A stretch of DNA of 64,000 nucleotides from Gekko japonicus. Lineage: Eukaryota. The position numbers and the translations under genes were made by a program. The number at the start of each line of letters is the position of its first letter. Positions within the stretch are counted from its first letter, which is position 1. The notes beneath the pieces were generated by a model. The model searched no databases and had not been told where the DNA came from. It saw only the letters and a list, made by a program, of their open reading frames with translations. Below are positions 15,920 through 34,420 of the stretch, piece by piece. The DNA lies in NCBI RefSeq assembly GCF_001447785.1, contig NW_015175997.1, positions 316,878 to 380,877 of the forward strand. The letters are read 5' to 3'.

Positions 15920-16094
15920 ATGCCCTCAGAGAAGCAGTCAAAGAACAAGAAATGGTTGAAAACATTTGAGAATCCTTCAGAAAAGGAGGCAAAATCAACT
16001 GGGAAAAGGAAACGAGATCAGGTGGAACTGGAAAATGAGTTGCGAACAAAGAAATTGCTTGTCAGAAAAATCAACAAGTTTCCAGAGAAAACGG
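15920..16094 (+). CDS. DDB2: DDB2 coding exon 1 (MPSEKQ...PEKT)
   Basis: Acceptor TTTCCAG ending 15907, ATG 15920, donor GTAATA, phase 1; basic N-terminus (GKRKR) resembling avian DDB2. Confidence 0.85.
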
Positions 16095-19000
16095 GTAATA
16101 TCATCAAAGCCTTGAAATTTTATCATACACCTGACTATGTAATACAGGTTTAATTGAATTATCTTTGTCCTGTCACTTTTCTTACTTCTTGCAAACACCC
16201 TTCCATTTTCTAGGAAATCCTGAGTACTGTGCTTGGGCCATTTCATATGGAAAATTGTTCCTGCACATTAGTTATCTCTGTGTAGAAAAATGTGTGAAGC
16301 GTCTTTAACCGGATATTTGTGATCGTGTTCCTTTTAACTAACAATTTAATACTTCCCTGGCTCATGGCAAAAATTAGACAGGTTTAAAAAGATGGTTTAA
16401 TAACTTTAAAAAAGAAAGAGAAATTATCCTTCAGGCTAAGTCAGAGAACAACTCTCGATATTCTTGTCTCCTAACATTAGAAATGGTATGAGTAATGCAA
16501 GTGGGGCAAGAACTGAAAAACACCTGCATATATGCTAATATCTTGGGCCCGAGCTACACAAACTAGCAGCAGACCTTTAGATCTGCATCTTTAGATGTAG
16601 GTCTTCTACATTCCCACCTAAAGTGCAGGTGGAAGGTATGATTGAATGAACCCATGTGATGTATTTGGAAAGTGTTGGACCCTCCCATTATTACCTGTAC
16701 ATGCTTTTCTCTTAATTAGTATCCAGTTATTTGAAATAAGATGGAGGTACATATATGTGTACGGGACAAACAGCCCTCCCCCTGTGGCTGTTTCAGCTTG
16801 CAAGAATAGTATTGGAAGGAAAGCTGAAGGCCCTACTCTCCCTGTGCCACACTCTTAGTTCCCTGATGTTATGTATATCTGCAAGTCAAAGTGGGGAGCC
16901 TCCCAACATGACTCGTGTCACACGTATTGTCTAGTTTGGCCTTAAGCTGAGAGTGGAGGGGTGTTTGCACTATGCCCCTTTGGCACTTTCTGTACTATAT
17001 TCTCTTTTATGTGTGAGTGGGGCAGACTAAAAAAAAAAAGTGTCTGCTGTCATGTCTCTGTTTTGTATCTTGCAGAACTAACCCCAGCCTCTAAAATCAG
17101 TTGGAGTTTTGCTGTTGACTTGAACGAAGACCATATCTTTAATGTTCTGTTGATGGGTCTCTCTATGCAGGAGCACATCCAGCCTGTGCTGAAAGCATTG
17201 CACTGGCTGCCAGTAGCATACTGGATTCGCTTCAAGGTGCTGGTTTTGACCTTTAAAGCACTTTATGGTCAGGGTCTGGCATACCCAAGGGACCGCCTTT
17301 CCCCATACATTCCCCAGAGAGCACTGCGTTCAGGGGCCCAAAACCAGCTAGCCCTCCCAGGCCCCAAAGACATCAGGCTGGCGATAACCAGGGCCAGGGC
17401 CTTCTCAGTGGCAGCTTCGTACTGGTGGAATGTGCTCCCAGAAGAGATCAGGGCCCAGGTGGGACCTTTTACAGTTCCACAGGTCCTGCAAGATGGCGCT
17501 CTTCCATTAGACCTTCGATTAGGAGCCGCCTCAAACACCAAAGAGTCACCCTGTGCCCTGGCTTTACCACCTTCAGCCTGTCTCGTCGCACTAATTAGTC
17601 GACCAAACTGAGCTGATGGGAGAATACCATCATGACTGTCACTTAAGTAGTATTGTTTAATCTAGAAATCTCTGCTCTCGCACTTTGTGTATTGTTCCAG
17701 CACTTTAGGAAAACTGATAACTGACTTGTTTATGGCTGTTTTTATTAATGATTTTAATTGTATTTATATATGCATTTGTATGTAAGCTGTCCTGAGCCTG
17801 CCTTGGCGGAGAGGGCAAGGTATACATTGAATTAATAAATGATAATAAATAAAATATTTTTTTTTTGGCCTTAGGGCAGGGATCTCCACCCTTTTCGAGC
17901 TTGTGGGCACATTTGGAATTCTGACGTGGGATGGTGGGTGCAACCACAAAATGATTGCTGCAGGAGGTGGAGCCAGCCATGAAATGATGGCCACAGTTTG
18001 ACTTTAGTCACACAGTGTAGTTCCTTGTGGTGTGGTGGTAGCAGCTGCTGCCAAAGTAACATTTTTAAAAAAAAATCTGCACGGCCAATCAAATCTCCAG
18101 TATTCAGTCAGAAGTGGGCCCCACCCACTTCCAAAAAACATTTGGTGGATGCCGGAAAAGGTGTCCGTGAGTGCCATGGCACCCACAGGTACCACATTGG
18201 GGATGGGGGGACCCCTGCCTTAGGGAGTACTTTTTGATGGTGTAATTTTTTTGCTTCCTTCTGTATCTTATTCATGACTTGCCTTGCAAGTAGAGTGTTG
18301 GTTTCACTTCATCTTTCTCTTTGTCAATCTGACATCATGAGTTTGGAGGAAATTATATTTCATTGCTTTGTATATGATTAGACTGTGTTGTGGACACGAT
18401 TGAACAGATCCTGTGTTGTATGGATATTCCTGGTGACCCGTCAGAAAAAAAGAAAAGAAAAAGGCAAGCACCGTAGAACTGGTGGTGTTCAAAAAAAGAA
18501 AAAGTTGGGTTGTTCAGCAGAATTCTCCCTAAACACAAATGTTTTTAGGCTTTTCTGTGAAGAGTCAGCAGGTCTGTTGTTGAAAACAAAGTACAGCAAG
18601 CTACTGTCAGTGCCTGGCAAGCCATAGAATAAATCTGGAATATTCTCGTTTAAACAGAGATTCAGGGAGAATTTCAGGGATTAATGCTGTCATGCTTTTG
18701 AAGATTTTAGGTGGAAGTTTTAGTTTCCTAATTAGGGCCAAGATTTGACCTCTGTATTGCCACTTTGACTTGCGTACTGATCTGAAAGTTGAGCTTTCCC
18801 ACTACATTATTTTGAATGGTTTCTGGGTTCTTGGCAGAGCAGTGCTAAAATGTGTGCCCATTTAGATTGTCAGGCTTGAAATACAGAGTTTTTTGAGGGG
18901 TGGCTATGGAAAGTAGACTGTGAAACTACACTTATTGTGAAATTACACTTCCAGACCTGCGTGGAGCCCTTGTCGTCTTGTGTGCTGTTGCTTTCTGGTT

Positions 19001-22000
19001 AATGAAAATACCAGTGTCACAGTAATATGTAGTAAATCAGATTTGGCAATATGAAAGTAAATGAAACCAATTTAGAGTGTGTGCAGAGTGTTCTGAATCA
19101 GTTATTTCAGTGATTACCAGGCAGTCAGTTCATTGATTGCCTTCATTTATTCTACAGGGATCAACAGTTTTGTTTCCCTTAGATTGAATTCCTAAAAGCA
19201 AAACAAAACCCAAGTGTGTGTGCACATGTGTGTGTGCTTTCAATGTAGATGTGAATGTAGAAACACAACGTAGTTTCTTGGTAACAGCAGAGAAGTCATT
19301 TTTTTTACCAGTGTCTGCCTCCAGCTTTAACAGATCAATTTTAAGAATTACCAATAAATCTGAATGTTGAATTAACACTTGTACTACCATTGAAGTCTTA
19401 AGTAATGTATGATAGCAGTTTTGGTCCACAGAAAGGTTTCAGAAAGTCTTGTATTACATTGCATTAAGATCTACTAAAAAGCACAAAACAATGAGCAAAC
19501 TTTCAAGTGCTTTATCAATCTGGGTGTTCAGTTTAACAAAAATCCAAAAAGAGGGAGGGAAAGGATGAGAGATCATTTGTAGGGCATGGTGGAAAGGCCT
19601 CAGACTTGAAGCATACAGAAATGCAATACAAGATGTGTGGCTGTCAAGTGGAATATCATTATGTATCATCATCACTTACATTAAGTGGCATAGTAACTGG
19701 GAAAAAATTATCCCATATCTTGTTACTTAAACGACAAATATGTCCCTGTAAATAATATCTCTTTGAGTTTCTTTCTCAGAAATTAATTTCTGAAAGATAG
19801 TTTCAGATTATGACTTGAAGTTTTATTTCAGAGATCTGAAGGCTGGCATGCATTGAAAGCAGCTTCTCTGTTTTCCATATTAATTTGTTCTTTTGGTACA
19901 TGTATTTCCACACATAGACTAGTTTTCGTGTAGGATGCTTCCATGCAGGGATTTTTTCCCCCCTTGGTGGAACACAACATGCCCTCTCCTTATGCCGCAG
20001 AAAATGGAAGAATCTAAAACAAGTGTGTGAATCTGAGAGTTGTGCACTTTATAAGAATTTATAAGAATTATAAGAATGTATAATTTGTAATTTATAAGAA
20101 TTATATTTCCTAATACTGTAGACTGTCTACGTAGTTATCATTTTGGGGGAGAGAAAACAGTATATTAAAAACTTTCCTTAACAAGGATTTCATTGTTCAC
20201 AGAGAAATGTTTTAGAAGAGTTTTTCTCCAATTTTCTCAATTTCTGATTTTTCCATCAGAAAAATTGAAAAATGGCCAGGGGTTGCATTTTTCTCCAGCA
20301 TCGTTTACTTGGTGTTCTGTCTTTAGAACATGTGAAAAGGTAAAGGTTTCCCTTGCTCGAAAGCCAGTTGAATCTGACTCTCGGGGTGGTGCTCACCTCT
20401 GTTTCCAAGCTGAAGAGCCAGTGCTGTCCAAAGACTTCTCCATGGTCATGTGGCCATGACTAAACGGCCAAGGCGCACAAAATGCTGTTACCTTCCCACC
20501 GAAGCAGTACCTATTTATCTACTTGCAATTTCTTGCTTTCGAACCACTAGGTTGGCAGGAGCTGGGGCCAGAGATGGGAGCTCACAGGAGGGTACATAAG
20601 TTCACTCTGTTATTTCAATGGAGCACGTTCCAGTTTTCTTCTCTCCACTGTTTTGTTTATTTACTTAATTATATGTATAAATCGCCTAATCCCCACAACT
20701 GTGGGGCTCTAGGTGATGTACAGATTAAAAGCAATAAAAACCATAAAACCATAATCAGACAATATAATGCATTAATTAATTAGAATCGGATGGCAATTTT
20801 TGTGGTTCCCTCCTATTTTCTGGCCTGTGGGTGCTTCGTGGATTGGGGGGGGAGGGAATAAACTCCACAAGGGATAGGAATCCAGGAGGGGTGCCAGCCA
20901 TGATGCAAGCCGTTGCTGTCCTCAACCAAACGCCTGGTGGAACGTCTCTGCCTTACAGGCCCTGCGGAATTGCATAAGGTCCCACAGGGCCCTGATGTCA
21001 TTTGGCAGAGAGTTCCACCAGGTTGGGGCCAGGGCTGAGAAGGCTCTGGCCCTGGTTGAGGACAGCTGGATGACTATAGGGCCAGGGACCACCAGCAAAT
21101 TGTTCTGTGAAGAGCATAGTGCTCTCCTGAGGGTATACCGGAGGAGCCGGTCCCACAAATACGTTGGTCCCAGACTGCTCAAGACCTTAAAGGTCAAAAA
21201 CACCTTTTAACTTGCTGGCCAAACGTCAGGTACTACAGTGCCAAGTCCATGGCCATACAGCCGGAAAATCTACAACAACTAACCTTTTAACTTGACTCGG
21301 TGCTCCACCATGCTTGCTGAATTCACATTACAGGTATTGAAAAAGGCCTATGTTCTTGTTGCTTCCACTGAAGCAGAGCAGATGTGGTCTAAGTGAACAC
21401 ATAAGCAAATGTTAAATGTCTTTTTTATTGTCTGGCAGGTCAAACTTTCCATGCCTCCATAATCAGAAATACTGGAGTGCCTTTTCATCAGCGAGAGATG
21501 CAGAAGAGCATTGTCCATTATGTCTACCAGAATGTGCTGGGTTCCTCTGTTGGGGTACAGCTCAAGAAGGTAAGGGATTCTTCTTGCCACCTAAGCTCCC
21601 CACAGCCTCCTTTTCATTCAGAATGTTTTCGTTTTGGGACATTCTACACGGAACAAGCAGAGAGTACAGATTCTCTACTATTGTCAACTTTTCTGAGAGT
21701 TTGGGATTATATCAGTTCATTTATCCTGGCCCCATAAGGCCAAACTACGCAGTATAATCACGTGTCAAAATTTTCTTTTTTATTGTGAATAGTCTCTGGA
21801 TGTATGAGTTTCAGTGATGGAGTGGCTGTTTTAGCCCTCCCCTGCCCAGCCATTTATCTTCCTACAGCTGTGTTCTCCCTGTTGAGGAAAAGGTATGAGA
21901 ACTTCTGTCTTCTCTCCATCTCCTTCTTGGGGAGGAGAAAGCAGATTGCCACAACAACTTTGAATGGGCAAATCATTCAGAAGAGGGTTTAATGCTCCAC

Positions 22001-25000
22001 TTATTTTGCTGTTGCTTTACTGAAATTTGCAACATACTCAGTTGCTTTGGATGAAAGAAGAACAAAACATTAGAGAAGCATACATATTTCATGTGTCTGA
22101 GTGTAGTTTGAGTCACAGTCTCCTCTATCAGCCGTGCAGAAAGGTGGAAGACTGTTACAGGCAGAACACTTTTTAATTGCATGGTCTGCATTCCCCTTTT
22201 CTCATTGTCTCTGCAGCAGTGTCTCCAGATGCATTTTATACGTTCCCTCAAGCAATACCGCTTGTTCAGAACTGCAAGTCCCTTTGATAGGAGAGTTACA
22301 TGTTTGGAGTGGCATCCAGCGCATCCCAGCACAGTTGCTGTGGGCTCCAAAGGTGGAGATATCATCCTGTGGGACTATGAAGTGCTCAATAAAACCTGCC
22401 TCATAAAAGGGGTAAGTTATTATGAAGGTGGACTGCAGTGTCAGCATGTGGTATATGTTAACAGAATAGGGTGTGTTGAAGGTGATCTACTTTCTATACA
22501 AAGGGGAGGATTAGGAAGAAGGATGGAGGGAAATCTGTAAGACACGGGGAAATCTTTTATTTATTTTTTGAGTTTGCTCTTTGCCCCCTTTCAGATGAGA
22601 AAGCACTTTACTGAGTGGAATGAAGTCCCTGCTCCTAGTGATATAGTCAATTGTTCTTTTGACCTGCACAGACTTAAAAGAAAAACACCACCTTGACAAA
22701 TTACAGTTGGGTGCCTCTGTGGACTAAATAACTGTGTGTTGCTGCCCGATTTGCTAGAGCTTGAACACTTAAAATAGTGATGAAGACTAGTAGTCTGGAG
22801 ATTCATAGTCCCTCTTGAAAATACCTTTTGCTGCAATTATTATTTGGATTGATATTTCTCTGTGACTGTACTTGCTTCAAGCTTCAGTATTTTTCATTTT
22901 TTGTTGCTCAGACTTTTGTCCTGTCATCTTACCCTGACAGAGGCAAAACAAAATACATGTCTAATCTGTATACAAGTTCATAAAAAATACCATAAAACAA
23001 TTCAAGTTCCCTCAGCCATGATGCAGTTTTGATGACTCACCCAGAGACCAGCTATTATGAAAAGGTTGTATAGATGACTCCCCAGTCCCAGATAATGGTA
23101 TACTCAGTACTTAACAGTATTTAACATTACTCTACATGTAGCTTGGCAGGATTACTTTTAACCATGACAGTAACTTTGTGTAGCAGTTGCTTGGAAGTAC
23201 CAAAACCCTTTCCATTTGTAAGGATTTTTGATTAGCCTGGTTGCTGTTATGTAGAAATAAATGCAGCCTGTTGTAGAAGTTGAGCTCTGTGTTGGTGCTG
23301 GTATAAGCAGAGGGAACTTTCCTCCTTCACTGAGTGGATTTCTGTTTTATTCATCCCCTTCGTTGTAGATGGGAGCTGGAGGGTCCATCACAGGAATGAA
23401 GTTTAACCCTTTTAATCCTAGTGAGCTGTACACATCATCAGTTGCTGGAACTACTGTCCTCCAGGATTTTAATGGGAATACAATCCGGGTCTTCACCAGT
23501 ACCGACGACTGGGAGTAAGATGCAATCCGCTTATATCCATCTCTGCCTTGTTCTGTTATTTAGAAGGCAACACAGACATAAGAAGTATATAGGGGTTTTC
23601 TGTTGTTGCCCTGTTAGAGATATTCATTCAGAACGGTGTCAGAAGCAAATAGACATGCTTGGCCAACTGTTTTACATGTTTTACACATCTTTTTAGACAT
23701 GGGTATTAATATTTATGTAATGGGAAATATGTAACATGTGAATTGGTTCTCTGTTGTATGACTGCCTTGTGTTGATTCAGTACAGACATGTTAGGCGTTG
23801 ATTGTTAGAATGGAATGAAATTACTGCTGTGCCATGTTCCACTAAATACTTTTCCCTAAAAAGCACCTGTCTTGCTCTCAAGGTAAATTGGAAAAAAGCA
23901 GATATCATGCTCTAGAGCAGCTGCAGGAAAACTGTGAAATGAATACCACCTTAGAAAGATGCTGGACAGGGTAAATGTACACTTCAGCATGGAATGCTGC
24001 TTGTTTTGTCCTTGTTCTCTGAGGCCGGGAAGGCAGATCCAGGTGTGGCTGTCACATTCACATCCTGTATTCTGAACTAGAGGAAGTTTAGTACAACTGG
24101 AAGGAACTTCGTAATGTTTGGGACATTGCCCAGGTTGACCCTAAAAGCACAGAATATTTGCATGTTGTATGGATATCTGGGAATACTTAGTTCTATTGTT
24201 GAGAGACAGGTTTTGTGTCATGGTTTGAAACCTGCAGTTCTGTAAGTAGTCCTTAAAATTATTGTAGTCCTACAGCATTCTTGTGTGTTCCAAAATTATT
24301 GTACTAGAAACTGGTAGTTCTTCGATTCTTCTCATACACACATACCCCCCACCAAGAGAGAGACTAGCAAACCCCAGTGCAAATGGTTCCATGGAGTGGG
24401 GTGTGGGAAGCAGTTAGAACATTTACCAGTTTACATTATCCAGAGAGCCAGTTTGGTGTAGTGGTTAAGTGTGTGGACTCTAATCTGGGAGAACGGGTTT
24501 GATTCCCCACTCCTCCACTTGCACCTGCTGATGTGACCTTGGGTCAGTCACAAGCTCTGGCACAGCTGTCCTTGAAAAAGAGCAGTTTGTGTCAGAGTTC
24601 TCTCAGCCCCACCCACCTCACAGGGTATCTGTTGTGGGGAGGGGAAGGGAAAGGAGTTTGTAAGCCGCTCTGAGACTCCAAGTGAAGGGCGGGGTATAAA
24701 TCCAATCTCCTCCTCCTCCTCCTCTTCCTCCTCCTCTTCTCCTCGTCCTCCCCCCCTTTTCATTGTATTATCCAGTGGTGTTTTTTGTTTTAAAAAGGGG
24801 GTATTTTATAACTTCCCAGCATTTGTTCAAAGTAGTTCTGAAGGAATTTAAATACAAAGAGAAGTTAGCTAACTAATTACTACAGAACCTGTAGTAGATC
24901 AAATACAGGGCTAATTAGCCCAGTAGCAAGTGCATAAGTGTGGATGCATCTGGAGTCTCCATGAACTCAGCATATCTCTGCCAGGATGTACCAAGTGCTT

Positions 25001-28000
25001 TTTCTTCAGTAACCTGAATGTATCTCCTCTGTTCTTGTGCATTCCAGAAAAGTCCTGGATATGTTCTTGTAGGTATGAAGGTAATGGCACTCTTGTTCTG
25101 TGGTATCTTGAGGGCCAAGCAATGCATGTGGTCTTTGCACCTTAGTCTGGCCATGAATATCATGATGCTTGGTGAGGAGTTAGAAGGGCAGCTTCATAAC
25201 TGAACCTTTTGATAACTTGATGATGCCTTCAAATCTAACCTATCAAGAAGTCATTCAGGCAGTTTGAATCACTGCTGTCTGCAAACAAAGTAGTTCAGTA
25301 TATTGTTGGCATAATCATTTGAGTGCCATTTTACTTGAAAGCATACAGGGGAGGAGAATGGGAAAATGATAAACTCCTCTGGTCGTCTGTCTACTCATAC
25401 ACCACACCATGGATGATCTATAGAGCAGATATTGGTGATGGCAAAAACATTTCAAGAAGAAGCATAAATAGTGTTGCTGTATTGGTATATGTGGCATGGG
25501 AAGAAGAGTAAATAAAATCGCTTCTGGAGTTCTGTCTAACTAAAACAAATACATTTAAATATATTGTCTTGAACTGATTCATTCTTTATGTTGCTGACCA
25601 ATTTATTGGCTGCATGTGTTCTGGTTGAACACTAGTGCTTCAAGAGGGAAGTGCATGGCCATATGGGCTGGACTATGTGCCGTTATTGGCCATATGGAAT
25701 GGCTGTTCACTGCATGTTTAGATTTGTGCCTCCTTCTCAAACAGTGTGGTGATGCACTGAGATAAACAAGCAGCAGGCAACAAACTTGTATGCCACACAG
25801 CCCTCAGACTTCAAAGGAATTTGACTGCTATATTTAATCTCTGATCCCCTTTTGGAGGGTGGGATTTAATTTCTAATAGTCATTTTAAACCCTTGTTACA
25901 CATGCTGTCAATGATTCGAGAATAGGATTTGTCTTTCCAGGTTGTCTGTATGCATGGATAATGGGGCCTTTTGACTTGCTGGACTTGTTTATTGAACTTT
26001 ATTTGTGTTTGTTGAATTTATTACCTGTTCACAGCACATCGTCTGAAACTGATTCCACATCAGAGTATCATCTGAGTTCCACATAATCCTGTTAATTTAC
26101 TGTGATTCTGTTACACATTTAGATCTTGGAAATGAGGATGTTGTTCTTGCAGTCCTATGGTTTGTCCTGTTCTTGCAGTCCTGTTTGTTGTTTTATGGGA
26201 CAAAAATTCTGAGCTTGTGCCTCTCTCGGTTTCTCTCTCTTTTGTTTTAAAGTTTCTGGTACTGCAGTGTAGATGTATCTGCAAATTGCCGGGCTGTGGT
26301 GACAGGTGATAATATGGGCAACGTCGTCCTACTCAGTACAGAGGGTGAAAAGGTTAGTATGCCTTTGGTAACACATACTTAAATGGTTTTGGTATTTTTC
26401 ACATTTCATGGGGGTGCTGCACTGACCTGCTTTTATGTATGTTGTTAGATTACTTCACTGTGGTGGGTTCAATTAATAGGTTACTGCTTTGGTGAGGGAA
26501 TCACCTCTGTAGCCACCCCCTAGATGGAGGGTCCCATACACATCTTCATCCTGCTAGGCAGCAATCACGCAGGAAAGGAACTGTGTCATTTAACCCACCT
26601 ATGTGGTTCCTCATCTAGATGTTTCTAGTGCATGGTGGGACTGGAACACAGGCAGCTGCCTCTGTGGTAACATGAGATGCTGTTTTCTAGTACAGATGCT
26701 ATTTTCTACTACAGAGGCTAGGAAGGAAGCCTAGAAGTACAGCCTTTTTAGGATAATTTTTGTACTTTAAACTTACTAGTACTGGATTTATTAGCAACTT
26801 CTCCATGGTTCATAGAGTCAGGCATGCACTACTGTCCATGTGCCTATACTCCTAAGGGGGGGGGGGAGAGACACAACCCCAGGAAAGGCATGCTGTATAT
26901 ATAAATTCCATATACTAGAGTTTTGTCTTGGACTGACTCTCTTGCTCTGTCGCTGTCATTCAGTTTGCTTTCTGTTATATGTACTGTAGATATGGAACCT
27001 GAAACTGCACAAAAGGAAAGTAACTCATGTGGAGTTTAATCCTAGCTGTGATTGGCTTTTGGCTACAGCCTCTGTAGATCAAACTGTCAAAATCTGGGAT
27101 CTGAGGAACATAAAAGACAAGTCATGTTACCTTCATGCACTTCCTCATGACAAAGCTGTCAATGCAGGTAAGACAGCAAAGTGGAGCCACGTTTTGCCAT
27201 TCCAACCTATCCATTCTTGGTTGGGTGTGTGTGATCCTAGCATCTCTTAGTCTAGCAGTACCTTAAGGACTAAGTGAAGAAGTGAGCAGTGACTCAGAAA
27301 AGCTCATGCCCTGCCACAAAAATTGTTAGTCGTTAAGGTGCTACTGGCTCTTTTCTACTGCTACAGACAGACTAACGTGGCTACCCATCTTGTTTTATCT
27401 CTTAGTCTGTGTCTATTCTTTTCCACCACTTTCATTAGATATCCTTATTTAAAATGTATACTTTCCTTTAACCAGGGCTCAAGGCAGCTCTCTGTCAGAG
27501 ATAAAAACATTAAAATAATTATCTCAAAAATGCTGAATAAAAAAATTAGCAAATTGAGGAAAGAATATCAATCAGAAATCAACCCCAGAAGAGAGGACAA
27601 TTTTGCAGGGCCCATAAAACTGTCAGCAGTTAATGTGCCTTCTGTACATCCTCTGGTAGCCTGCTTTGTAAGACTGGAAAGGTGAGGTCTGTGCTCTTGC
27701 AGGAGATGTCTGCAGCTGTCAAAAGGAGGGCACAGCCAGAAAGCCTGTTAGTCTGACCTGAGTTGGCAGCTGGGTTCATATAAGGGGAGAGGTTATTCCT
27801 CAGATTGGTGGGCTGTAGGTTCTGAAGGTAAGAACTAAGACTGCGAATTGAGCCAAGAAGCAATTTGGGAGCTTTTTAAGATGGTGTGCATGTAAGTGTA
27901 TGTGTATAAGTGTGTGTTTATGACACTCAGCACCAGACAAAAAGTGCACGTTGTACCAGTTGAATTTCTGAACAGTTTGCCCCACATAGAGTGCATTACA

Positions 28001-31000
28001 GAAATCCATTCTGGAAGGTAAAGATGTAATGATTAGCATGGGTAAGTCCTCTTAAGTTTAGAAAGGAGGGCCATTTATGAATTCAGTATAGATGAAAGAA
28101 AGCAGTCCTGGGTACAACTCCAACCTGCTTGACAGTACTCCCGTATTCTTCACCTAGTTAGACAGGGTCAACCTGACCCTGTCCAAACCAATAATTCAGT
28201 TACTTCCACAACATCAGCCTTTTTGGCTAGCATCACTTCTTCCTTGTTGAGATTTAATTTTTTAGCCCCCCTCCCAGCCACTACATCCAAGCACTAATTC
28301 AGGACTTCCACCCCCACCCCCACACACAGGGTGCTGTGCGCCCTGAAATCATGTCTCTGGGGAATAGTATGGGGACAATGTGAGAGTGAGTGAATGGGGA
28401 AATCAGTAAAAATTTGCCAGTGGAATATACAGTTAGGATCCAGACCTTTATGTCCTGTTCAACAGAAAAGATCAGAGCTATTGGAGTGCAATTCCTGAAA
28501 CCTCAGCATTAAGCTTTAAATGATTCAACATGGGTAATAGTTAACTATAACAAAAAGCTGAAGAAATACCTAAGCAAATGATGTATTTCTATCAGTCTGC
28601 AAATTCAGATCATTCACAACCGTGACTAAAGTTGTCTCTGCCCTAAAGCCAGATTAAAAATGGGTGAAGGAAAGATGTCATTCATTTTGAAGATGCCATT
28701 CATGTTGAAGTTGCTGTGTCACCAGATGCTCAGTCACCTTTGCAAAAAAACAAAAGCAAACCCCAAACCAAGAAGGGGGTGGTTGGAGTCCAAATGGTTG
28801 TTAGCCAACCGTTAGTTATCCAAAGAGGGTTTTTCAGCAGTGACATAACCAGAACGTTGAGTTCCTGAGAGAAGCTGTCCTCTAGCAAGGAGGTATTAAT
28901 TTTGCTGAAGGTGTGCTTAGTTCCCTCTGGCAGGACTTAAGCTGTAAAATCCATTTGCAGGTAGTGGCCTCCCTAACTTTAATCACTTTGTTTGCATCAG
29001 TCAAGAAGAGCAATCCAAAATTATTCAAGGAACCACTGCGAATGGGTGCTTCTGATACTGCTGTTATAGGAATTGTATTTGTCCTAGTGGCTCTTAGACT
29101 GGAAATTAAAGAGTTGACCAGCAAAGAATCTTGTAAAACTATCACTGATGTTTCTTCTTCCAAAGGATTGAATCTGAATGCTTAAAGACCATGAATAACA
29201 CTGAAAAGCTCTACTGAACCAGATTATGCTGATTTGGTGGTAGTGGAGAAACAGGATAGATGCTTAAAGACCATGAATAACATTGAAAAGCTCTACTGAA
29301 CCTGATTTGGTGGTAGTGGAGAAACAGGATACTTTGCCACCTCACAGGTGCTACCTGAAAATGGACTGGCCTGTTTGCTTACAGGTTTTTCAGCAATGTC
29401 ATTTCAGGTGTCTGAACACTTTCATATCTTCAGGCTCCCTGAAATAAGAGTTAGATGGGACAAAGTGGGGAGAGGGTGATGGGAAGTGATCCTCTGAATT
29501 GCCCCATCAGCCCCTGATGTTGGGCTCCCGTGAAGGAGTCATCTGAACCACTACTGTGACTTCCTAGATCCCTAGAGCATTCTTGAAACCTGTTCTGTCC
29601 ACAAGTCTTTGAATATGGACAACCCTGATGGGACCACTACTCACATGCAGTTGGAAAGGTTAAAACTAACCATGCCTTGAACAGATAATGTTCTGACCAC
29701 TTGTAGTCCTGACCTATTAACTGCTTGGTTGGAGTGGGTGGTGGTGGTCACACTGCACTCGGTTGCGCCGAAGAACGAATCCAGTGGATTGGATTTTATG
29801 AAGCATTTTTCAGATTGAAGGGTTTCCATTTGCAGAGTACAACTTTCTTGCTTGTTGCCTCCTGCTGTAGACCAAAATGTATATGTAGCTGACACATGTT
29901 GTGATAAAATAGTCTGCTTATGTATTCCAGCCAGGATTTGATCAAACAAGCCAGATCTACATTCTCCTCCTCATACGAGTCACAAAGGAAAGAGCTCTTA
30001 TTACTTGCAGGCTTGGTGTTGCTGAAAAAACTTGTACTCAGAGATGCTGTGGAATAGGTTGAAAGTTAAACAAGGAGCAAGTACTATCATGTCCTTGTCT
30101 TCTCAAGCAGACAGTCCTTCCATGCTTACAAATCACAACTATATAGAAATAGATCAGCCGGTCATGAAAGTGCTGTGTGTTGCAAATGATACTGAGAAGT
30201 GTCCTGTGGTAGTAGGTTCAGTGAAAGCCCTAGCCAGGACTGTTTAAGTAATATGAATAACTACATATGCTGTATACAAGACTTACCAGGTTTTTTCCTG
30301 TCTATGTTGTATCCACAATTTATTGTTTCAGAACTTACCAATACAAAAAGATTTTACATTCTCTGTAGTTCCTGGAGTGATATCTGCTGACTTAAAAAAG
30401 AATTGAGACACTTCATGTTTGCAGGTGGCAAAGTAACCAGAAGTATAGATTTGAGTTAAGATCAGTTAAGATTTGAAGTATAGATTTGAGTTAAGATCAG
30501 TGAAGCTCAAAGAAACTAATTATTAGATACATCTAATCTCATTGAAATCTGCGGTATTTATAGGTTTATATATACATATCTGTTGATTTCTAGTATGAAT
30601 TTAGCATGGTTGGTTGTTGCATGCTGTTTCTAGTTATGTCCATGACTTGTGCTTTTTATGACAAATTTATCCATTACTCTTGCCTCCTCAAGCAATTACA
30701 GTGTTTTGTTAATACTTTATTTTATTTAATAACAATTTCATAATGCTTTTATTTGTTTATGGAATTCATATTCTGCTTCTCCAGAGTCCAGCTTCATGAC
30801 TAAGATTAGCGAAAATTCAAAAATCAATTCATTTTCTTACGAATGCCGTTTGTAACCTGAAAATGCAGTTTGTGACCACAGCAGTATGATTTTACATTGT
30901 TTCTGTTCTACTCCTCTTCAGCTTATTTCAGCCCAACAGATGGTTCTAAGCTACTGACTACTGACCAGCACAGTGAAATCCGGGTTTATTCCTCTTTTGA

Positions 31001-34000
31001 TTGGTCCAAACCACAGCATCTGATTCCACATCCTCATCGGCAATTTCAGCATCTCACACCTATTAAGGTGAAGAAATAAGCATGTTAACTAGGAGTCATT
31101 CACTACTTCATGATGTTAGAAGGTGAAGATAAGCATTCTGCAGCTCCTGTATAGAAATGTATTGAGAATCTGATTGGCAGGCAGGAAAAACGTGCACGTA
31201 CAGGTCTTAATGGTAAATTGTTCTAGGTTGTGTTGTTTTCTTCTGTTATCACTTATGGATCTAAAATTGAGCCATATTCACTCTCTGGCTGGCATTTAGG
31301 GAGTCTGTGTGGCAACAAGACTAACGTGAATGCAAAAGTAGACAAAAACTAGAGGTAGGATTGGATAGAAGGAAACCTGAGTAAATGCATCTTGTTTCTA
31401 CAAGTAAGTCTAGGGTGTGAAAACTGGCCTTACTAATAGGTTTATAGGCAAGTGTAGGCTGTTAAGAACCTGTGGGAATTATGTTCCTATTCAATTGTGT
31501 TGCTGTTCTATGGTGTCTTGAAAGCCATTAATGACTTTAGCAACTTGATTTCATGAGTGGAGTAGAAGCTGAACCTGTAGGCTTGTAGACCCACATAGTG
31601 CCAATTCTTGATAAAACGCATCCTGTTTTTCTCTTAATTCTCTCTAATTCATTCATACCAACTTCAGCATTAATGTTGCTTAACTTTGTATTGGATTTAG
31701 GCAACATGGCATCCTCGTTATAACCTCATTGTAGCTGGTCGTTATCCAGATCCTAAGTTCCCAGGATACACAGTAGATGAGCTGCGAACTGTCGATATAT
31801 TTGATGGAGACAGTGGGGAAATGGTGTGCCAGCTGTATGATCCAAATGCATCTGGCATTATTTCGGTGAGTGTGGAGGACTGGTTTCAAATTACGTGAAC
31901 CTAGTATTTCGTCTGAGGGTCTGGGAATAGGGGACAGGAAAAGGACAATAACTTTCAAGCATGGTAGCAATAATGATTTTCTGTATGATTAAAAGTGTGT
32001 CCACTTCTGTTCTCCTTGAGGAGAGACTGCCATACTAGGATTTTATAGGATGCTAATCTAGAATTGTTGAGGGGTCAGTAAATGCATTATATGGAGCTCT
32101 TCAGTTTCCTCTTCCTGATTTGACCTCTAATGCTGATTGGATCAGATCCCACAGGGCCCTGATGGTGTTCGGCAGAGTTCCACCAGGTTGGGGCCAGGAC
32201 TGAAAAGGCCCTGGTTCAGGACAGCTGGACGTCTTTGGTTCCCTATGCCTCATTCCCTTCCTCCTGAGATGTGTCTGCAACTTTATAAACTTCAGAGGTG
32301 GTGATAGCGCTGTGCACCTCTAAAATTGTGTTGCCTCATTAAACAAAGTTCATGTTCTTTTGTTTGTATGTAAGCTACAGGGGGAAAAACTGTTGAGAGA
32401 ATCCTGCTTTCAGTGCTTAATTTTGAACCTCACTCATGGAAACTATCTTTTTAACAAAACCAAAGCCTGGATATATATATATATATTTGTACCATATCTG
32501 ACTACCCTGGTGCAGTTCATAGGAGAATGTTCCATCTTTTTTTGGGGGGTGCCAGTTGTATGATGTGTTGGAAAGTTTTGGGGGTTTTGGAAAGTATTTA
32601 CATCTTGCTGCAACAGCTTCGGGCTCTCAGGCCAGATTTCTTTAAAGTTTGTGGTTGCCAATCACTAAGTACTCAGGCAGATTCTCCTGCATAAACTTTA
32701 CTGTGGTCACCAGATTTTACTCATAATGAAAAGAGGCATATGCTGAATATGGGAGTGTAAAGGGCCTCCCTATTTGAAGCTGTGCTGATTTGTGCAGAAC
32801 TCTTCCTCATTGAATGCTGGCCTTTTCATTGTTGGGTTTATCCAGAATGTTCTAGTTCCTGATTTTGATTGATCGTGTTAAATGAACAGTGGACAAGGCT
32901 ACAATTCATGCTTGTGTTTTATATTTGCAGCTCAGTAAGTTTAACCCTATGGGAGACACACTTGCCTCTGGAATGGGTAAGTGATCGGTTTGATCTTGCA
33001 CTTGACGACAGCGTGGTTAAGAACCGGTTGAAACTTGTAGCTCCTTGTCATATTGGCTCCCTTGTTCAGCTTTCTGAATGGTCTTCATTACGTTCAGTTC
33101 CTGTGTGTACTGACTGTCCTCCCATATGCTGAGGTAGGAGAGATTCTGGCTCCACTGTGGAGCTGGTGATCATGGACAGCTGTATCCTTACAGGAGGGGT
33201 GAGAGAGAGGTTATGTTCGTGAAAAGTCTTCTAACTCTTTAAAAAAAGAAAGGCAAGATCTGTTGACCTTAAACATGATAACCTTTTGCCCTGACCTGGT
33301 TAGCCCAGGCAAGCCCAATCTGGTCAGATCTCGGAAGCTAAGCAGGGTTGACCCTGGCAAATATACCAGGGCCAAAGAATATCACGGTGAGGAGGCAGAG
33401 GCAGGCTATCAAGCCACTTCTCTGAACATCCTCCATGCCCCAGTAGGAGTCGCCAGAGGTCCCCGTGACTTCCAGGCAAGGCACACATACATATACATGC
33501 ACAGACACAAAAATGCAAAAATACACACACACCCCCAAATAAAAAACCACGATAACCTTTTCTCTCCTCTTTGTTTGGTGGGGAAAAAGTTAAGTATTCT
33601 TCAACTTGTGGTAGGTAGGAACAATATGTCTCTTAATAGAAGGTACTGCTGCCATCTGCTGGCCTCTTAATGCAGAAGAGGGAGGTATAAGATTTAACAG
33701 TCTTTACAGACTTCCAAGTGGAATCAGCACCTGGACTAATAAGTGCTTTAGCAATATCAGTATTGTACCAGTTGTGACACTGTTCATTATGTTGCTGATC
33801 ATACCATAATTGACAAGTTCTTACTAGCTCCTATATAGTTCTCCCTGTTTTGTATCCTAGAAGGCCTTCCCTTTCATATAGGGAAACTGGCAACACAGAA
33901 GTCTAATCAAGCACAGTGGTATAAACTTTTATTAGAAGTACAGCTTTCTATGTCCAGTATTTGGAAAGATGACTTTCTCACACATTCCAAAAATAGAGTA

Positions 34001-34420
34001 TTCCTTTGAATACTGTTCCTGTAATGGGACTTTGTGGAACTGGCATCTAAAGTGAACCATTTCATTAATGCCTTAGAAGTATTTAGGTATGGCAGACCAT
34101 CTCAAAATGTACTTTTTTACTGTATGCATACTGCGCCCAAAACAGAATTCTTAGTGACTGTTTTCTTGCCAGGTTTTAATATTCTGATCTGGAGCCGGGA
34201 GGAAATGGTAACCAGAAAACAAGAGTGTCTCATGCAAGCTATGACAGAGCAGGGAATTGGAGGCAGGAGTTTATCTCGGCAAAGAGGACAGAGGCAATCA
34301 AGCACTGGAACAAGTAGACTCAGAACTAAACTACTCAGTCTGGATTTTGAGGGAAGCAAAACAAAGAGCAAGGAATGCACATTACAGAAGAAACGGAAAG
34401 GAAAGGATTCAGAGGACTGA
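15920..34420 (+). CDS. DDB2: DNA damage-binding protein 2 (WD40; XPE), 10 coding exons, 508 aa: 15920-16094, 21439-21569, 22220-22411, 23369-23514, 26253-26352, 26990-27167, 30922-31067, 31701-31865, 32931-32976, 34173-34420
   Basis: Spliced 1527-nt ORF with GT-AG junctions and consistent phases; motifs [59 protein letters not shown]. Confidence 0.97.
17168..17850 (+). mobile_element. L2 LINE 3' fragment
   Basis: [39 protein letters not shown]; TAAA-type tail. Confidence 0.88.
17877..18217. mobile_element. hAT/Charlie-like MITE
   Basis: CAGGGATCTCC...GGGGACCCCTG ends; perfect 8-bp TSD CCTTAGGG. Confidence 0.85.
20336..20590 (-). mobile_element. Sauria SINE (5'-truncated)
   Basis: AAAGGTAAAGG (ACCTTT tail in reverse); high identity to 39850-40105. 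Confidence 0.85.
20650..21310 (-). mobile_element. L2 LINE 3' fragment
   Basis: [43 protein letters not shown]. Confidence 0.88.
21215..21281 (+). mobile_element. Short Penelope-like terminal fragment inserted into L2
   Basis: 13-bp TSD ACCTTTTAACTTG (21202, 21282); body GGCCATACAGCCGGAAAATCTACAACAAC. Confidence 0.65.
21439..21569 (+). CDS. DDB2: DDB2 coding exon 2
   Basis: [14 protein letters not shown]; CAG acceptor, GTAAGG donor. Confidence 0.92.
22220..22411 (+). CDS. DDB2: DDB2 coding exon 3
   Basis: [25 protein letters not shown]...CLIKG; 192 nt; CAGCAG acceptor. Confidence 0.95.
22595..22742 (+). pseudogene. Probable decayed alternative copy of DDB2 exon 4 (pseudo-exon)
   Basis: Polypyrimidine tract plus CAG acceptor; shares GGAATGAAGT and TCCTAGTGA with functional exon 4; frameshifted; no clear donor. 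Confidence 0.5.
23369..23514 (+). CDS. DDB2: DDB2 coding exon 4
   Basis: [24 protein letters not shown]...; 146 nt. Confidence 0.95.
24443..24766 (+). mobile_element. tRNA-derived SINE (Squam3-type)
   Basis: Full head to (TCC)n tail; flanking ATTATCCA duplication. Confidence 0.9.
26253..26352 (+). CDS. DDB2: DDB2 coding exon 5
   Basis: [27 protein letters not shown]; 100 nt. Confidence 0.95.
26990..27167 (+). CDS. DDB2: DDB2 coding exon 6
   Basis: [17 protein letters not shown]...LPHDKAVNA; 178 nt. Confidence 0.95.
27420..28330 (-). mobile_element. Old L2 LINE fragment
   Basis: Minus-strand [22 protein letters not shown], resembling the L2 ORF2 C-terminus. Confidence 0.6.
28560..29180 (-). 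mobile_element. Highly decayed L2 ORF2 (pre-RT) fragment
   Basis: Minus-strand ATTC.. and LLK.PSLD..NHPFL-like remnants. Confidence 0.45.
29178..29331. repeat. 82-bp tandem duplication (second copy with a small deletion)
   Basis: ATGCTTAAAGACCATGAATAAC...GGAGAAACAGGATA at 29178 and 29260. Confidence 0.9.
30922..31067 (+). CDS. DDB2: DDB2 coding exon 7
   Basis: [15 protein letters not shown]...[11 protein letters not shown] (FQH lesion-probing hairpin). Confidence 0.95.
31701..31865 (+). CDS. DDB2: DDB2 coding exon 8
   Basis: [18 protein letters not shown]...[11 protein letters not shown]; 165 nt. Confidence 0.95.
32145..32240 (-). mobile_element. L2 LINE fragment
   Basis: Near-identical to 20980-21070. 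Confidence 0.75.
32931..32976 (+). CDS. DDB2: DDB2 coding exon 9
   Basis: [15 protein letters not shown]; 46 nt. Confidence 0.93.
33290..33490 (+). mobile_element. 5S rRNA-derived SINE
   Basis: GATCTCGGAAGCTAAGCAGGGT (5S internal control region) fused to a non-5S tail. Confidence 0.75.
34173..34420 (+). CDS. DDB2: DDB2 coding exon 10 (last)
   Basis: [11 protein letters not shown]...KGKDSED*; basic C-terminal tail. Confidence 0.93.

What the first reader, a model, noticed from the sequence alone, without database searches (positions are those of the whole stretch)
22580..22745. Fossil of a duplicated, probably mutually exclusive DDB2 exon 4
Seen: in intron 3 a strong acceptor (TTGCCCCCTTTCAG|ATG) precedes sequence sharing GGAATGAAGT and TCCTAGTGA with real exon 4 (23369). 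Allowing for frameshifts it reads HF-LSGMK-x-PSDIV-x-LF...LTCTDLKEK...CGLNNCV. From memory, bird and fish DDB2 proteins have a second exon-4 type (chicken-like ..SLGDIKFSPYEAVKLY..LSLQDLEG..DCGHENHNVC), and this relic resembles that type more than the retained one. Inference: ancestral DDB2 could swap one WD40 blade by mutually exclusive splicing, and this lineage pseudogenised one option, as mammals apparently did. Loss in a gecko could be linked to relaxed UV-repair needs, but that is speculative.
Basis: partly seen in the sequence, partly recalled or inferred. Interest (0 to 1): 0.75.

Follow-up and report, generated by a model that had tools for sequence, protein, structure and literature searches.

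The report
Dead alternative lesion-pocket exon in DDB2
In fish, lizards, turtles and birds the UV-damage sensor gene DDB2 has two likely either/or versions of the exon that builds most of its lesion-binding pocket, and this gecko carries a broken copy of the second version (2.5 kb from where it was first flagged), a loss that likely recurred in snakes, crocodylians, caecilians and mammals.

Summary
Bony-vertebrate DDB2 has two homologous exon-4 types, 4A and 4B: 7 same-species isoform pairs differ only there, and 8 of 8 models holding both put 4A first. The gecko's dead 4B lies downstream of 4A, at 25048-25171. Its splice sites are intact, but it has 40-nt and 3-nt deletions and a stop; it groups with sauropsid 4B (99/99) and shows no spliced reads. 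The flagged 22580-22745 scores at chance against 4A and 4B protein profiles. Its first ~40 nt match a short insert in a tortoise gene model, likely a separate 31-nt poison microexon whose donor is deleted here. Exon 4 supplies three of the four pocket residues of the zebrafish structure. 4B puts Gly for Ile213 and a CxHxxHxxC loop for Trp236. All 8 solved DDB2 sequences are 4A, although curated chicken and zebrafish records are 4B. No 4B occurs among 58 gecko, snake, crocodylian, mammal and caecilian proteins fetched. The pairs are in RefSeq/UniProt, but nine literature searches found no description, and the scan had no earlier DDB2 finding.

The parts
22220..22411 (+). DDB2 exon 3 (phase-0 end)
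   Evidence: tblastn; RNA joint 22411>23369, 26 reads in X22
22572..22594 (+). Strong acceptor tract of the flagged element
   Evidence: 15 of 17 pyrimidines, CAG
22595..22637 (+). Short element conserved with a tortoise. Likely a 31-nt frameshifting (poison) microexon, 22595-22625, whose donor is missing in this gecko (inferred). Not the 4B relic.
   Evidence: The 15-aa insert between exon 3 and 4A in Gopherus model P0379 matches best here: first 8 residues rank 1 of 127,948 positions; frameshift-aware, 1 of 1000 intron shuffles. No reads in X22.
22638..22745 (+). Rest of the flagged interval: intron, with no protein-level exon-4 homology
23369..23514 (+). Exon 4A, functional (146 nt, phase 0 to 2); encodes the equivalents of zebrafish Pro191, Ile213 and Trp236
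   Evidence: joints 22411>23369 and 23514>26253; mapped to 3ei1_B 115-162; residues named in PMC4264169
24440..24751 (.). High-copy interspersed repeat (SINE-like; label recalled) with a (CTC)n tail, between 4A and 4B
   Evidence: read depth over 1000 in X21 and X23; TRF
25048..25171 (+). Pseudoexon 4B, 124 nt against an inferred 167. Acceptor CCAG and donor TG|GTGAG are intact. 40-nt deletion at 25080/81, 3-nt deletion, TAG at 25143, first Cys of CxHxxHxxC lost.
   Evidence: the X1 contig spans 24758-25504 with 0 gaps
26253..26352 (+). DDB2 exon 5 (phase-2 start; carries the Trp239 equivalent)

Best explanation
DDB2 of bony vertebrates carries two tandem homologous versions of exon 4 (4A, then 4B) that are likely spliced one at a time and are predicted to give the damage sensor two different lesion pockets; in this gecko 4B is a broken pseudoexon at 25048-25171, and only 4A is seen spliced. 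Shown: two exon types, their order, isoform pairs identical elsewhere, the gecko lesions, and 4A-only joints. Inferred steps: (1) exon 4 duplicated before ray-finned and lobe-finned fishes split; (2) both copies run phase 0 to 2, so including both or neither shifts the frame and would feed nonsense-mediated decay, which enforces either/or; (3) 4B keeps the WD40 blade but changes its top-face loops (Ile213 to Gly; Trp236 replaced by a 7-residue-longer CxHxxHxxC loop that may bind zinc), tuning which lesions are bound or how binding is regulated; (4) 4B became dispensable early in geckos and decayed, and any residual inclusion is now unproductive. The flagged acceptor at 22595 is a separate conserved element, likely an old poison microexon that has lost its donor here.
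For: Two types across 120 homologues. 7 same-species pairs are identical before and after exon 4: Hemicordylus, Salvator, Anolis, Colossoma, Misgurnus, Phoxinus, Protopterus (an eighth pair tried, Microcaecilia, was A/A). 8 of 8 models with both types have A first. The fossil has 25 of 42 readable residues identical to Hemicordylus 4B, against 44 of 48 for 4A. In the tree it falls inside sauropsid 4B (99/99) on a 0.81 branch; A+fossil is rejected, p-AU 0.018. Four listed variant sites in the fossil change residues in the ancestral frame, while the two listed in exons 4A and 5 are synonymous. X22 has 26 and 27 reads on the 4A joints and zero depth over 24742-26181. In the gecko, skipping exon 4, using the fossil, or using both all hit a stop. 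Pocket residues come from PMC4264169, mapped. 4B has Gly at position 25 in 44 of 46 unique sequences, and 4A has Trp48 in 72 of 72. The motif is present in 90 of 101 unique 4B-like exons and in 1 of 80 distant segments, itself 4B-type. The AlphaFold model of 4B isoform P0146 has pLDDT 79-94 over the exon and target-normalised TM 0.94 to 3ei1 and 4a08.
Against: Mutual exclusivity rests on annotated isoforms; I saw no reads from a species with an intact 4B. The 167-nt length of 4B is inferred from protein length. The pocket is shallow and makes no base hydrogen bonds, and the human match to 4A stops at residue 46 of 48 with Met at the Ile213 position, so the swap may change binding little. Zinc binding is untested; bichirs have 4B without the loop. 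RNA is thin: X23 had no reads on these exons, and X21 had only 2 junction reads and 3.3-fold depth on the fossil bin, similar to its exon depth, with no joint listed. 11 joints and 135 variant rows were not shown. The tree has 56 columns and its bootstrap had not settled. The 22595 reading rests on one gene model.
Confidence: 0.85

Rival explanations
1. One reading: 22580-22745 is the fossil of the second (bird/fish-type) exon 4.
For: Strong acceptor in phase 0; two short words shared with exon 4A.
Against: 4B profile score at chance (56 of 300). Wrong side of 4A (8 of 8 models). A clear 4B fossil exists at 25048. The peptide needs four frame switches.
Confidence: 0.03
2. 22595-22710 is a much older, decayed third copy of exon 4 (4A-like), whose 5' end was kept or reused as a short exon in amniotes.
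For: The acceptor-anchored alignment to 4A is the best of 163 sites, z 4.2, 6 of 5000 nulls; colinear 10+9-mers occur in 0 of 126 tiles and 6 of 5000 shuffles.
Against: No protein signal (140 of 300). Local DNA tests are not significant. Control exons reach z 3.4-3.6 by chance, and the site was picked after the resemblance was seen. The tortoise peptide implies other bases across the shared 10-mer.
Confidence: 0.2
3. 22595-22637 is a conserved intronic splicing element or an in-frame 45-nt microexon, as in the tortoise model, not a 31-nt poison exon.
For: The tortoise model P0379 has it in frame as 15 residues.
Against: It appears in 1 of 445 proteins fetched. The tortoise residues G-K-S read like a read-through donor (inference). 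In the gecko the 43-nt version would also frameshift.
Confidence: 0.35
4. 4A and 4B are functionally equivalent, and the losses of 4B are neutral and unrelated to light.
For: The pocket tolerates change. Diurnal Varanus, Tiliqua, Sceloporus and Phrynosoma also show only 4A (habits recalled). Cave fishes Sinocyclocheilus, Triplophysa rosa and Lucifuga keep 4B. Hornbill 4B looks decayed.
Against: Both types are kept from fish to birds with a near-invariant 4B-only motif. The 4B-less groups include the four that bioRxiv 10.1101/127654 names for light-gene loss: snakes, mammals, crocodylians and geckos.
Confidence: 0.3

Closest known systems
Annotated DDB2 isoform pairs: Anolis XP_003214666.2 / XP_008103210.1, Hemicordylus XP_053112391.1 / XP_053112354.1, lungfish XP_043938636.1 / XP_043938634.1; zebrafish NP_001076530.1 and UniProt Q2YDS1-2; chicken NP_001034390.2 / Q5ZJL7
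   Same: They contain the 4A/4B swap described here.
   Different: They are database entries with no comment on homology, pocket residues or loss. The gecko record XP_015281890.1 (488 of 488 residues identical to the window exons compared) has only 4A.
Tandem duplicated exon substitutions (homologous mutually exclusive exons), as catalogued in PMC9741552, PMC8373072, PMC7954323, PMC4494069
   Same: Adjacent homologous exons of equal phase, of ancient origin, altering ligand-binding residues.
   Different: DDB2 has 0 occurrences in these texts (listing) and in the supplements searched (one file not searched). The mammals fetched lack the second exon, which would hide it from human-centred catalogues.
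Solved DDB1-DDB2 structures (3EI1, 4A08, 3EI4, 4E54, 6R8Y, 9J8W)
   Same: Same propeller; the 4B model superposes with TM 0.94.
   Different: All 8 distinct DDB2 chains are 4A type; the 4B pocket has no structure.
Light-associated gene loss in geckos, snakes, crocodylians and mammals (bioRxiv 10.1101/127654); DDB2 inactivation in the blind cichlid (PMC7502198)
   Same: Overlapping set of lineages; a UV-repair gene is affected.
   Different: Here one alternative exon is lost, not the gene; the link to light is only a pattern in protein records.

Membership tests
Tandem duplicated mutually exclusive exons (4A/4B) | Two homologous exons adjacent in one gene | tested here: met
   18 of the first 46 residues identical within Hemicordylus; the 4B profile's top window hit is 4A; order A then B in 8 of 8 models
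Tandem duplicated mutually exclusive exons (4A/4B) | Same splice phases, interchangeable in frame | tested here: met
   4A is 146 nt, phase 0 to 2; the fossil acceptor and donor fall at the first and last codons of 4B
Tandem duplicated mutually exclusive exons (4A/4B) | Isoforms with one or the other exon, identical elsewhere | tested here: met
   7 same-species pairs
Tandem duplicated mutually exclusive exons (4A/4B) | Transcripts never stably hold both exons | tested here: inconclusive
   8 gene models hold both, joined by linkers or truncated; double inclusion would shift the frame (146+167 nt, inferred); no reads seen from a species with intact 4B
Tandem duplicated mutually exclusive exons (4A/4B) | Both isoforms translated | not testable with these tools
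   no proteomics; the model shows the 4B isoform can fold
Pseudoexon (25048-25171) | Homology to and syntenic position of a functional exon | tested here: met
Pseudoexon (25048-25171) | Disabling lesions that are not assembly errors | tested here: met
   40-nt and 3-nt deletions and a TAG; X1 contig with 0 gaps and 11 other letters across 24758-25504
Pseudoexon (25048-25171) | Not included in mRNA | tested here: inconclusive
   zero depth in X22 against 26-27 reads on 4A joints; low unspliced depth in X21; one informative run
Relic of exon 4B (22580-22745) | Frameshift-aware homology to 4B | tested here: not met
   20.0, 56 of 300 shuffles
Relic of exon 4B (22580-22745) | Position downstream of 4A | tested here: not met
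   lies upstream of 4A
Decayed copy of exon 4A (22595-22710) | Significant DNA or protein homology to 4A | tested here: inconclusive
   protein and local DNA tests at chance; anchored DNA test 6 of 5000
Poison microexon (22595-22625) | Conserved acceptor and exon body | tested here: met
   one tortoise model only
Poison microexon (22595-22625) | Functional donor and inclusion in this species | tested here: not met
   no GT after 22625; zero depth in X22
Poison microexon (22595-22625) | Inclusion triggers nonsense-mediated decay in species that keep it | not testable with these tools
   a 31-nt inclusion gives a stop in 4A in the gecko sequence; no turtle DNA or RNA available

The most novel reading that the evidence does not exclude
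Most non-mammalian vertebrates switch DDB2 between two lesion readers by splicing. The known 4A pocket is one. The other is an uncharacterised 4B pocket with a zinc-binding CxHxxHxxC loop, with different lesion specificity or redox/light control, and it is the curated form in chicken and zebrafish. 4B was lost independently in geckos, snakes, crocodylians, caecilians and mammals as they passed through low-light bottlenecks, so human DDB2 is half of an ancestral two-form sensor.
Probability: 0.3. Interest if true: 0.85.

Novelty: new member of a known kind. Interest (0 to 1): 0.66.

Why it matters
DDB2 is the first sensor of UV lesions in chromatin and the XP-E gene. Every solved structure is of the 4A form, while the curated chicken and zebrafish proteins are 4B, whose pocket residues differ. 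Results from these models may therefore concern a different protein surface than assumed. The pair gives a natural pocket swap that can be tested with two purified proteins. The gecko fossil is direct DNA evidence that the exon was lost, and offers a dated marker for repeated exon-level regression in low-light lineages.

Tried and rejected
Own-genome search: no genome is held, so copy number of the 22595 element and other species' introns could not be examined. The look-up of sequencing runs listed no holder on record as RNA; three same-label raw RNA runs and one contig set (4 of 23 runs) were laid; X23 had no reads on these exons. A shared 14-mer (22606 vs 23325) suggested a duplicate with a deleted acceptor; flanking alignments were not significant (42 of 400), so this was rejected. 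Steric exclusion of 4A/4B by a short intron: the gap is 1533 nt in the gecko, so it was not supported and not pursued. A Pfam scan of 50 of 206 window ORFs for neighbouring genes gave 0 families. Both 4B-region protein searches (15 and 78 hits) returned no named gecko, snake, crocodylian, mammal, caecilian, frog or cartilaginous fish; these list cluster representatives only and need shared 5-mers. Scrima 2008 (PMC2676164) is not held. Nine paper searches found no description of the pair. The three earlier-findings look-ups found nothing on DDB2. No complex prediction was run.

Full report
Setting. The window holds a DDB2 gene on the + strand, with ten coding exons from about 15920 to 34420. 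The exon parts compared are 488 of 488 residues identical to the Gekko japonicus record XP_015281890.1. Exon 3 ends at 22411, exon 4 is 23369-23514 and exon 5 starts at 26253; RNA joints confirm these three boundaries.

Observation. The acceptor at 22595 and the two words shared with exon 4 are present. I built profiles from 55 type-A and 33 type-B exon sequences and scanned both strands, allowing frameshifts. The flagged interval scored at chance for both types (56 of 300 and 140 of 300 shuffles). Local DNA alignment to 4A was also at chance (494 of 2000; 73 of 537 tiles). One test favours some relation to 4A. Aligned from the acceptor, the site is the best of 163 acceptor-like sites (z 4.2; 6 of 5000 nulls), and its colinear word pair occurs in 0 of 126 tiles. 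Control exons reached z 3.4-3.6 at unrelated sites, and the site was chosen for its resemblance, so I leave a decayed third copy at about 0.2.

Two exon-4 types. Among 120 homologues (the best 120 of 233) the segment after exon 3 falls into type A (49 residues) and type B (56 residues, ending in CxHxxHxxC). Seven same-species pairs, from teleosts, lungfish and lizards, are identical on both sides of this segment. Eight gene models hold both types, always A first, so 4B lies between 4A and exon 5. Amphioxus, acorn worm, ribbon worm, abalone and horseshoe crab proteins (named) have the short A-length loop. Only 1 of 80 distant segments has the motif, and it is itself 4B-type. The duplication therefore predates the split of ray-finned and lobe-finned fishes (inference). 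No named shark, lamprey or frog protein was among the hits, so its upper date is open.

The real fossil. tblastn with B-type proteins hits 25080-25166. The B profile scores 52.1 there, 0 of 300 shuffles, second only to 4A itself. The segment 25048-25171 starts after CCAG at the first codon of 4B and ends at TG|GTGAG at the split last codon. It is 124 nt against an inferred 167. It has a 40-nt deletion, a 3-nt deletion, a TAG at 25143 and loss of the first motif cysteine; 25 of 42 readable residues match Hemicordylus 4B, against 44 of 48 for 4A. In a 39-row tree it falls within sauropsid 4B (99/99) on a branch of 0.81, against 0.04-0.19 for the end branches of intact lizard copies. Grouping it with 4A is rejected (p-AU 0.018; 56 columns, bootstrap not fully settled). 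A contig of run X1 spans it with 0 gaps, so the deletions are not assembly errors. Four listed variant sites in it change residues, while the two listed in exons 4A and 5 are silent (135 variant rows not shown). Run X22 has 26 reads joining exon 3 to 4A, 27 joining 4A to exon 5, and zero depth over both the flagged interval and the fossil. X21 has 2 junction reads and low scattered intronic depth, 3.3-fold on the fossil bin, with no joint listed. X23 has no reads on these exons (11 joints not shown).

The flagged element. One of 445 proteins fetched, a Gopherus tortoise model (P0379), has a 15-residue insert between exon 3 and 4A. Its first 8 residues match best at exactly 22595, in phase, out of 127,948 positions (37 against 25). 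Its last four residues are encoded at 22623 in the next frame. About 40 nt behind the acceptor are therefore conserved between gecko and tortoise. The tortoise residues G-K-S at positions 11-13 are what a consensus donor gives when read through. This suggests a 31-nt exon whose inclusion shifts the frame, with the donor core deleted in the gecko. That is inference from one peptide, without tortoise DNA (about 0.45).

Mechanism. Passages of PMC4264169 name Pro191, Ile213, Trp236 and Trp239 as the shallow pocket for the flipped 6-4 photoproduct in zebrafish DDB2. By the alignment to 3ei1_B the first three are positions 3, 25 and 48 of exon 4A. 4B has Gly at position 25 (44 of 46 unique sequences) and replaces the Trp (72 of 72 in 4A; no named placental mammals in that count) with the longer Cys/His loop, which is present in 90 of 101 unique 4B-like exons. 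AlphaFold folds the lizard 4B isoform as a DDB2 propeller, with four strands in the exon, pLDDT 79-94 there, and TM 0.94 to the zebrafish structures. All 8 distinct solved DDB2 chains are type A, whereas chicken NP_001034390.2 and Q5ZJL7 and zebrafish NP_001076530.1 are type B. I infer that splicing swaps one blade and its DNA-facing loops (0.85 overall), that this changes lesion preference or regulation (about 0.6), and that the motif binds zinc (about 0.5; from the general behaviour of such motifs, recalled). Against a large effect: the pocket makes no base hydrogen bonds, and the human sequence already departs at two of these positions. Equal phases mean that double inclusion or skipping shifts the frame, which would let decay enforce either/or (for the gecko; inferred elsewhere).

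Distribution of loss. Type B was found in 0 of 9 gecko, 0 of 19 snake, 0 of 10 crocodylian, 0 of 13 mammal and 0 of 7 caecilian proteins. It was found in 6 of 12 proteins of other lizards, 1 of 1 tuatara, 2 of 14 turtle, 4 of 5 salamander and 2 of 3 lungfish proteins, and in many birds and fishes (only 15 of 29 members of one snake cluster were listed; five ENA fragments without exon 3 were dropped). Passages of bioRxiv 10.1101/127654 name snakes, mammals, crocodylians and geckos as lineages with light-gene loss. The motif is also damaged in kiwi and some owl models. Against a light link: Varanus, two skinks, Rhineura and phrynosomatids show no 4B (0 of 10 proteins; several are diurnal, recalled), cave fishes keep it, and hornbill and tinamou copies look decayed. 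Absence from protein records is not genomic loss; only the gecko loss is shown in DNA.

Literature. Nine searches found no description of the pair. Seen as passages: PMC4264169, PMC7502198, 10.1101/127654, PMC11162794, PMC8391564, PMC9741552. Seen as supplement searches plus listing: PMC7954323 (6 files) and PMC4494069 (2 files; file 1 not searched, and it could list ddb2). PMC8373072 was seen in the listing only. Scrima 2008 is not held, and subscription journals are mostly missing.

Verdict. This is a new member of a known kind (homologous mutually exclusive exons with lineage-specific loss), present in databases but apparently undescribed, and it falls on the functional surface of a central repair sensor. 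Interest 0.66.

Noticed in passing
window 22595-22637; P0379: Short element conserved between gecko and tortoise behind a strong acceptor in DDB2 intron 3; possibly a 31-nt poison microexon whose donor is deleted in the gecko.
   Followed up: partly
P0031, P0034 (hornbills), P0040 (tody), P0363 (tinamou), P0364/P0367 (kiwi), P0355/P0356 (owls), P0083 (Sinocyclocheilus anshuiensis): Exon 4B looks damaged or has lost motif residues in several bird models and one cavefish model, suggesting further independent decay; some may be model errors.
   Followed up: no
P0063, P0329 (Polypterus, Erpetoichthys): Bichirs show only a 4B-type exon without the CxHxxH loop in 6 of 7 cluster members (the seventh gave no readable segment); no 4A form was seen.
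   Followed up: no
P0240, P0252 (unnamed representatives): The exon-4 segment has a 4B-like front and a 4A-like end; these could be pre-duplication forms, but they could not be named.
   Followed up: no
P0023, P0039 (Logan): Short DDB2 products from skipping exon 4 or from an internal donor in 4B, both frameshifted into exon 5; consistent with unproductive splicing at this site.
   Followed up: no
window 25060, 25120, 25138, 25161: The fossil is polymorphic in this species; one allele has the ancestral Asp codon at 25060 and another loses the second motif His.
   Followed up: partly
window 24440-24751: High-copy, heavily transcribed SINE-like repeat with a (CTC)n tail inserted between 4A and the dead 4B.
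   Followed up: no
3ei1_B / 4a08_B versus P0335 and other cyprinid 4A: The crystallised zebrafish protein has Arg at position 214 where most related cyprinid 4A sequences have Trp, next to the pocket residue Ile213.
   Followed up: no
P0058, P0065 (Strix): Two owl DDB2 models are flagged LOW QUALITY PROTEIN, which can mark frameshifts.
   Followed up: no
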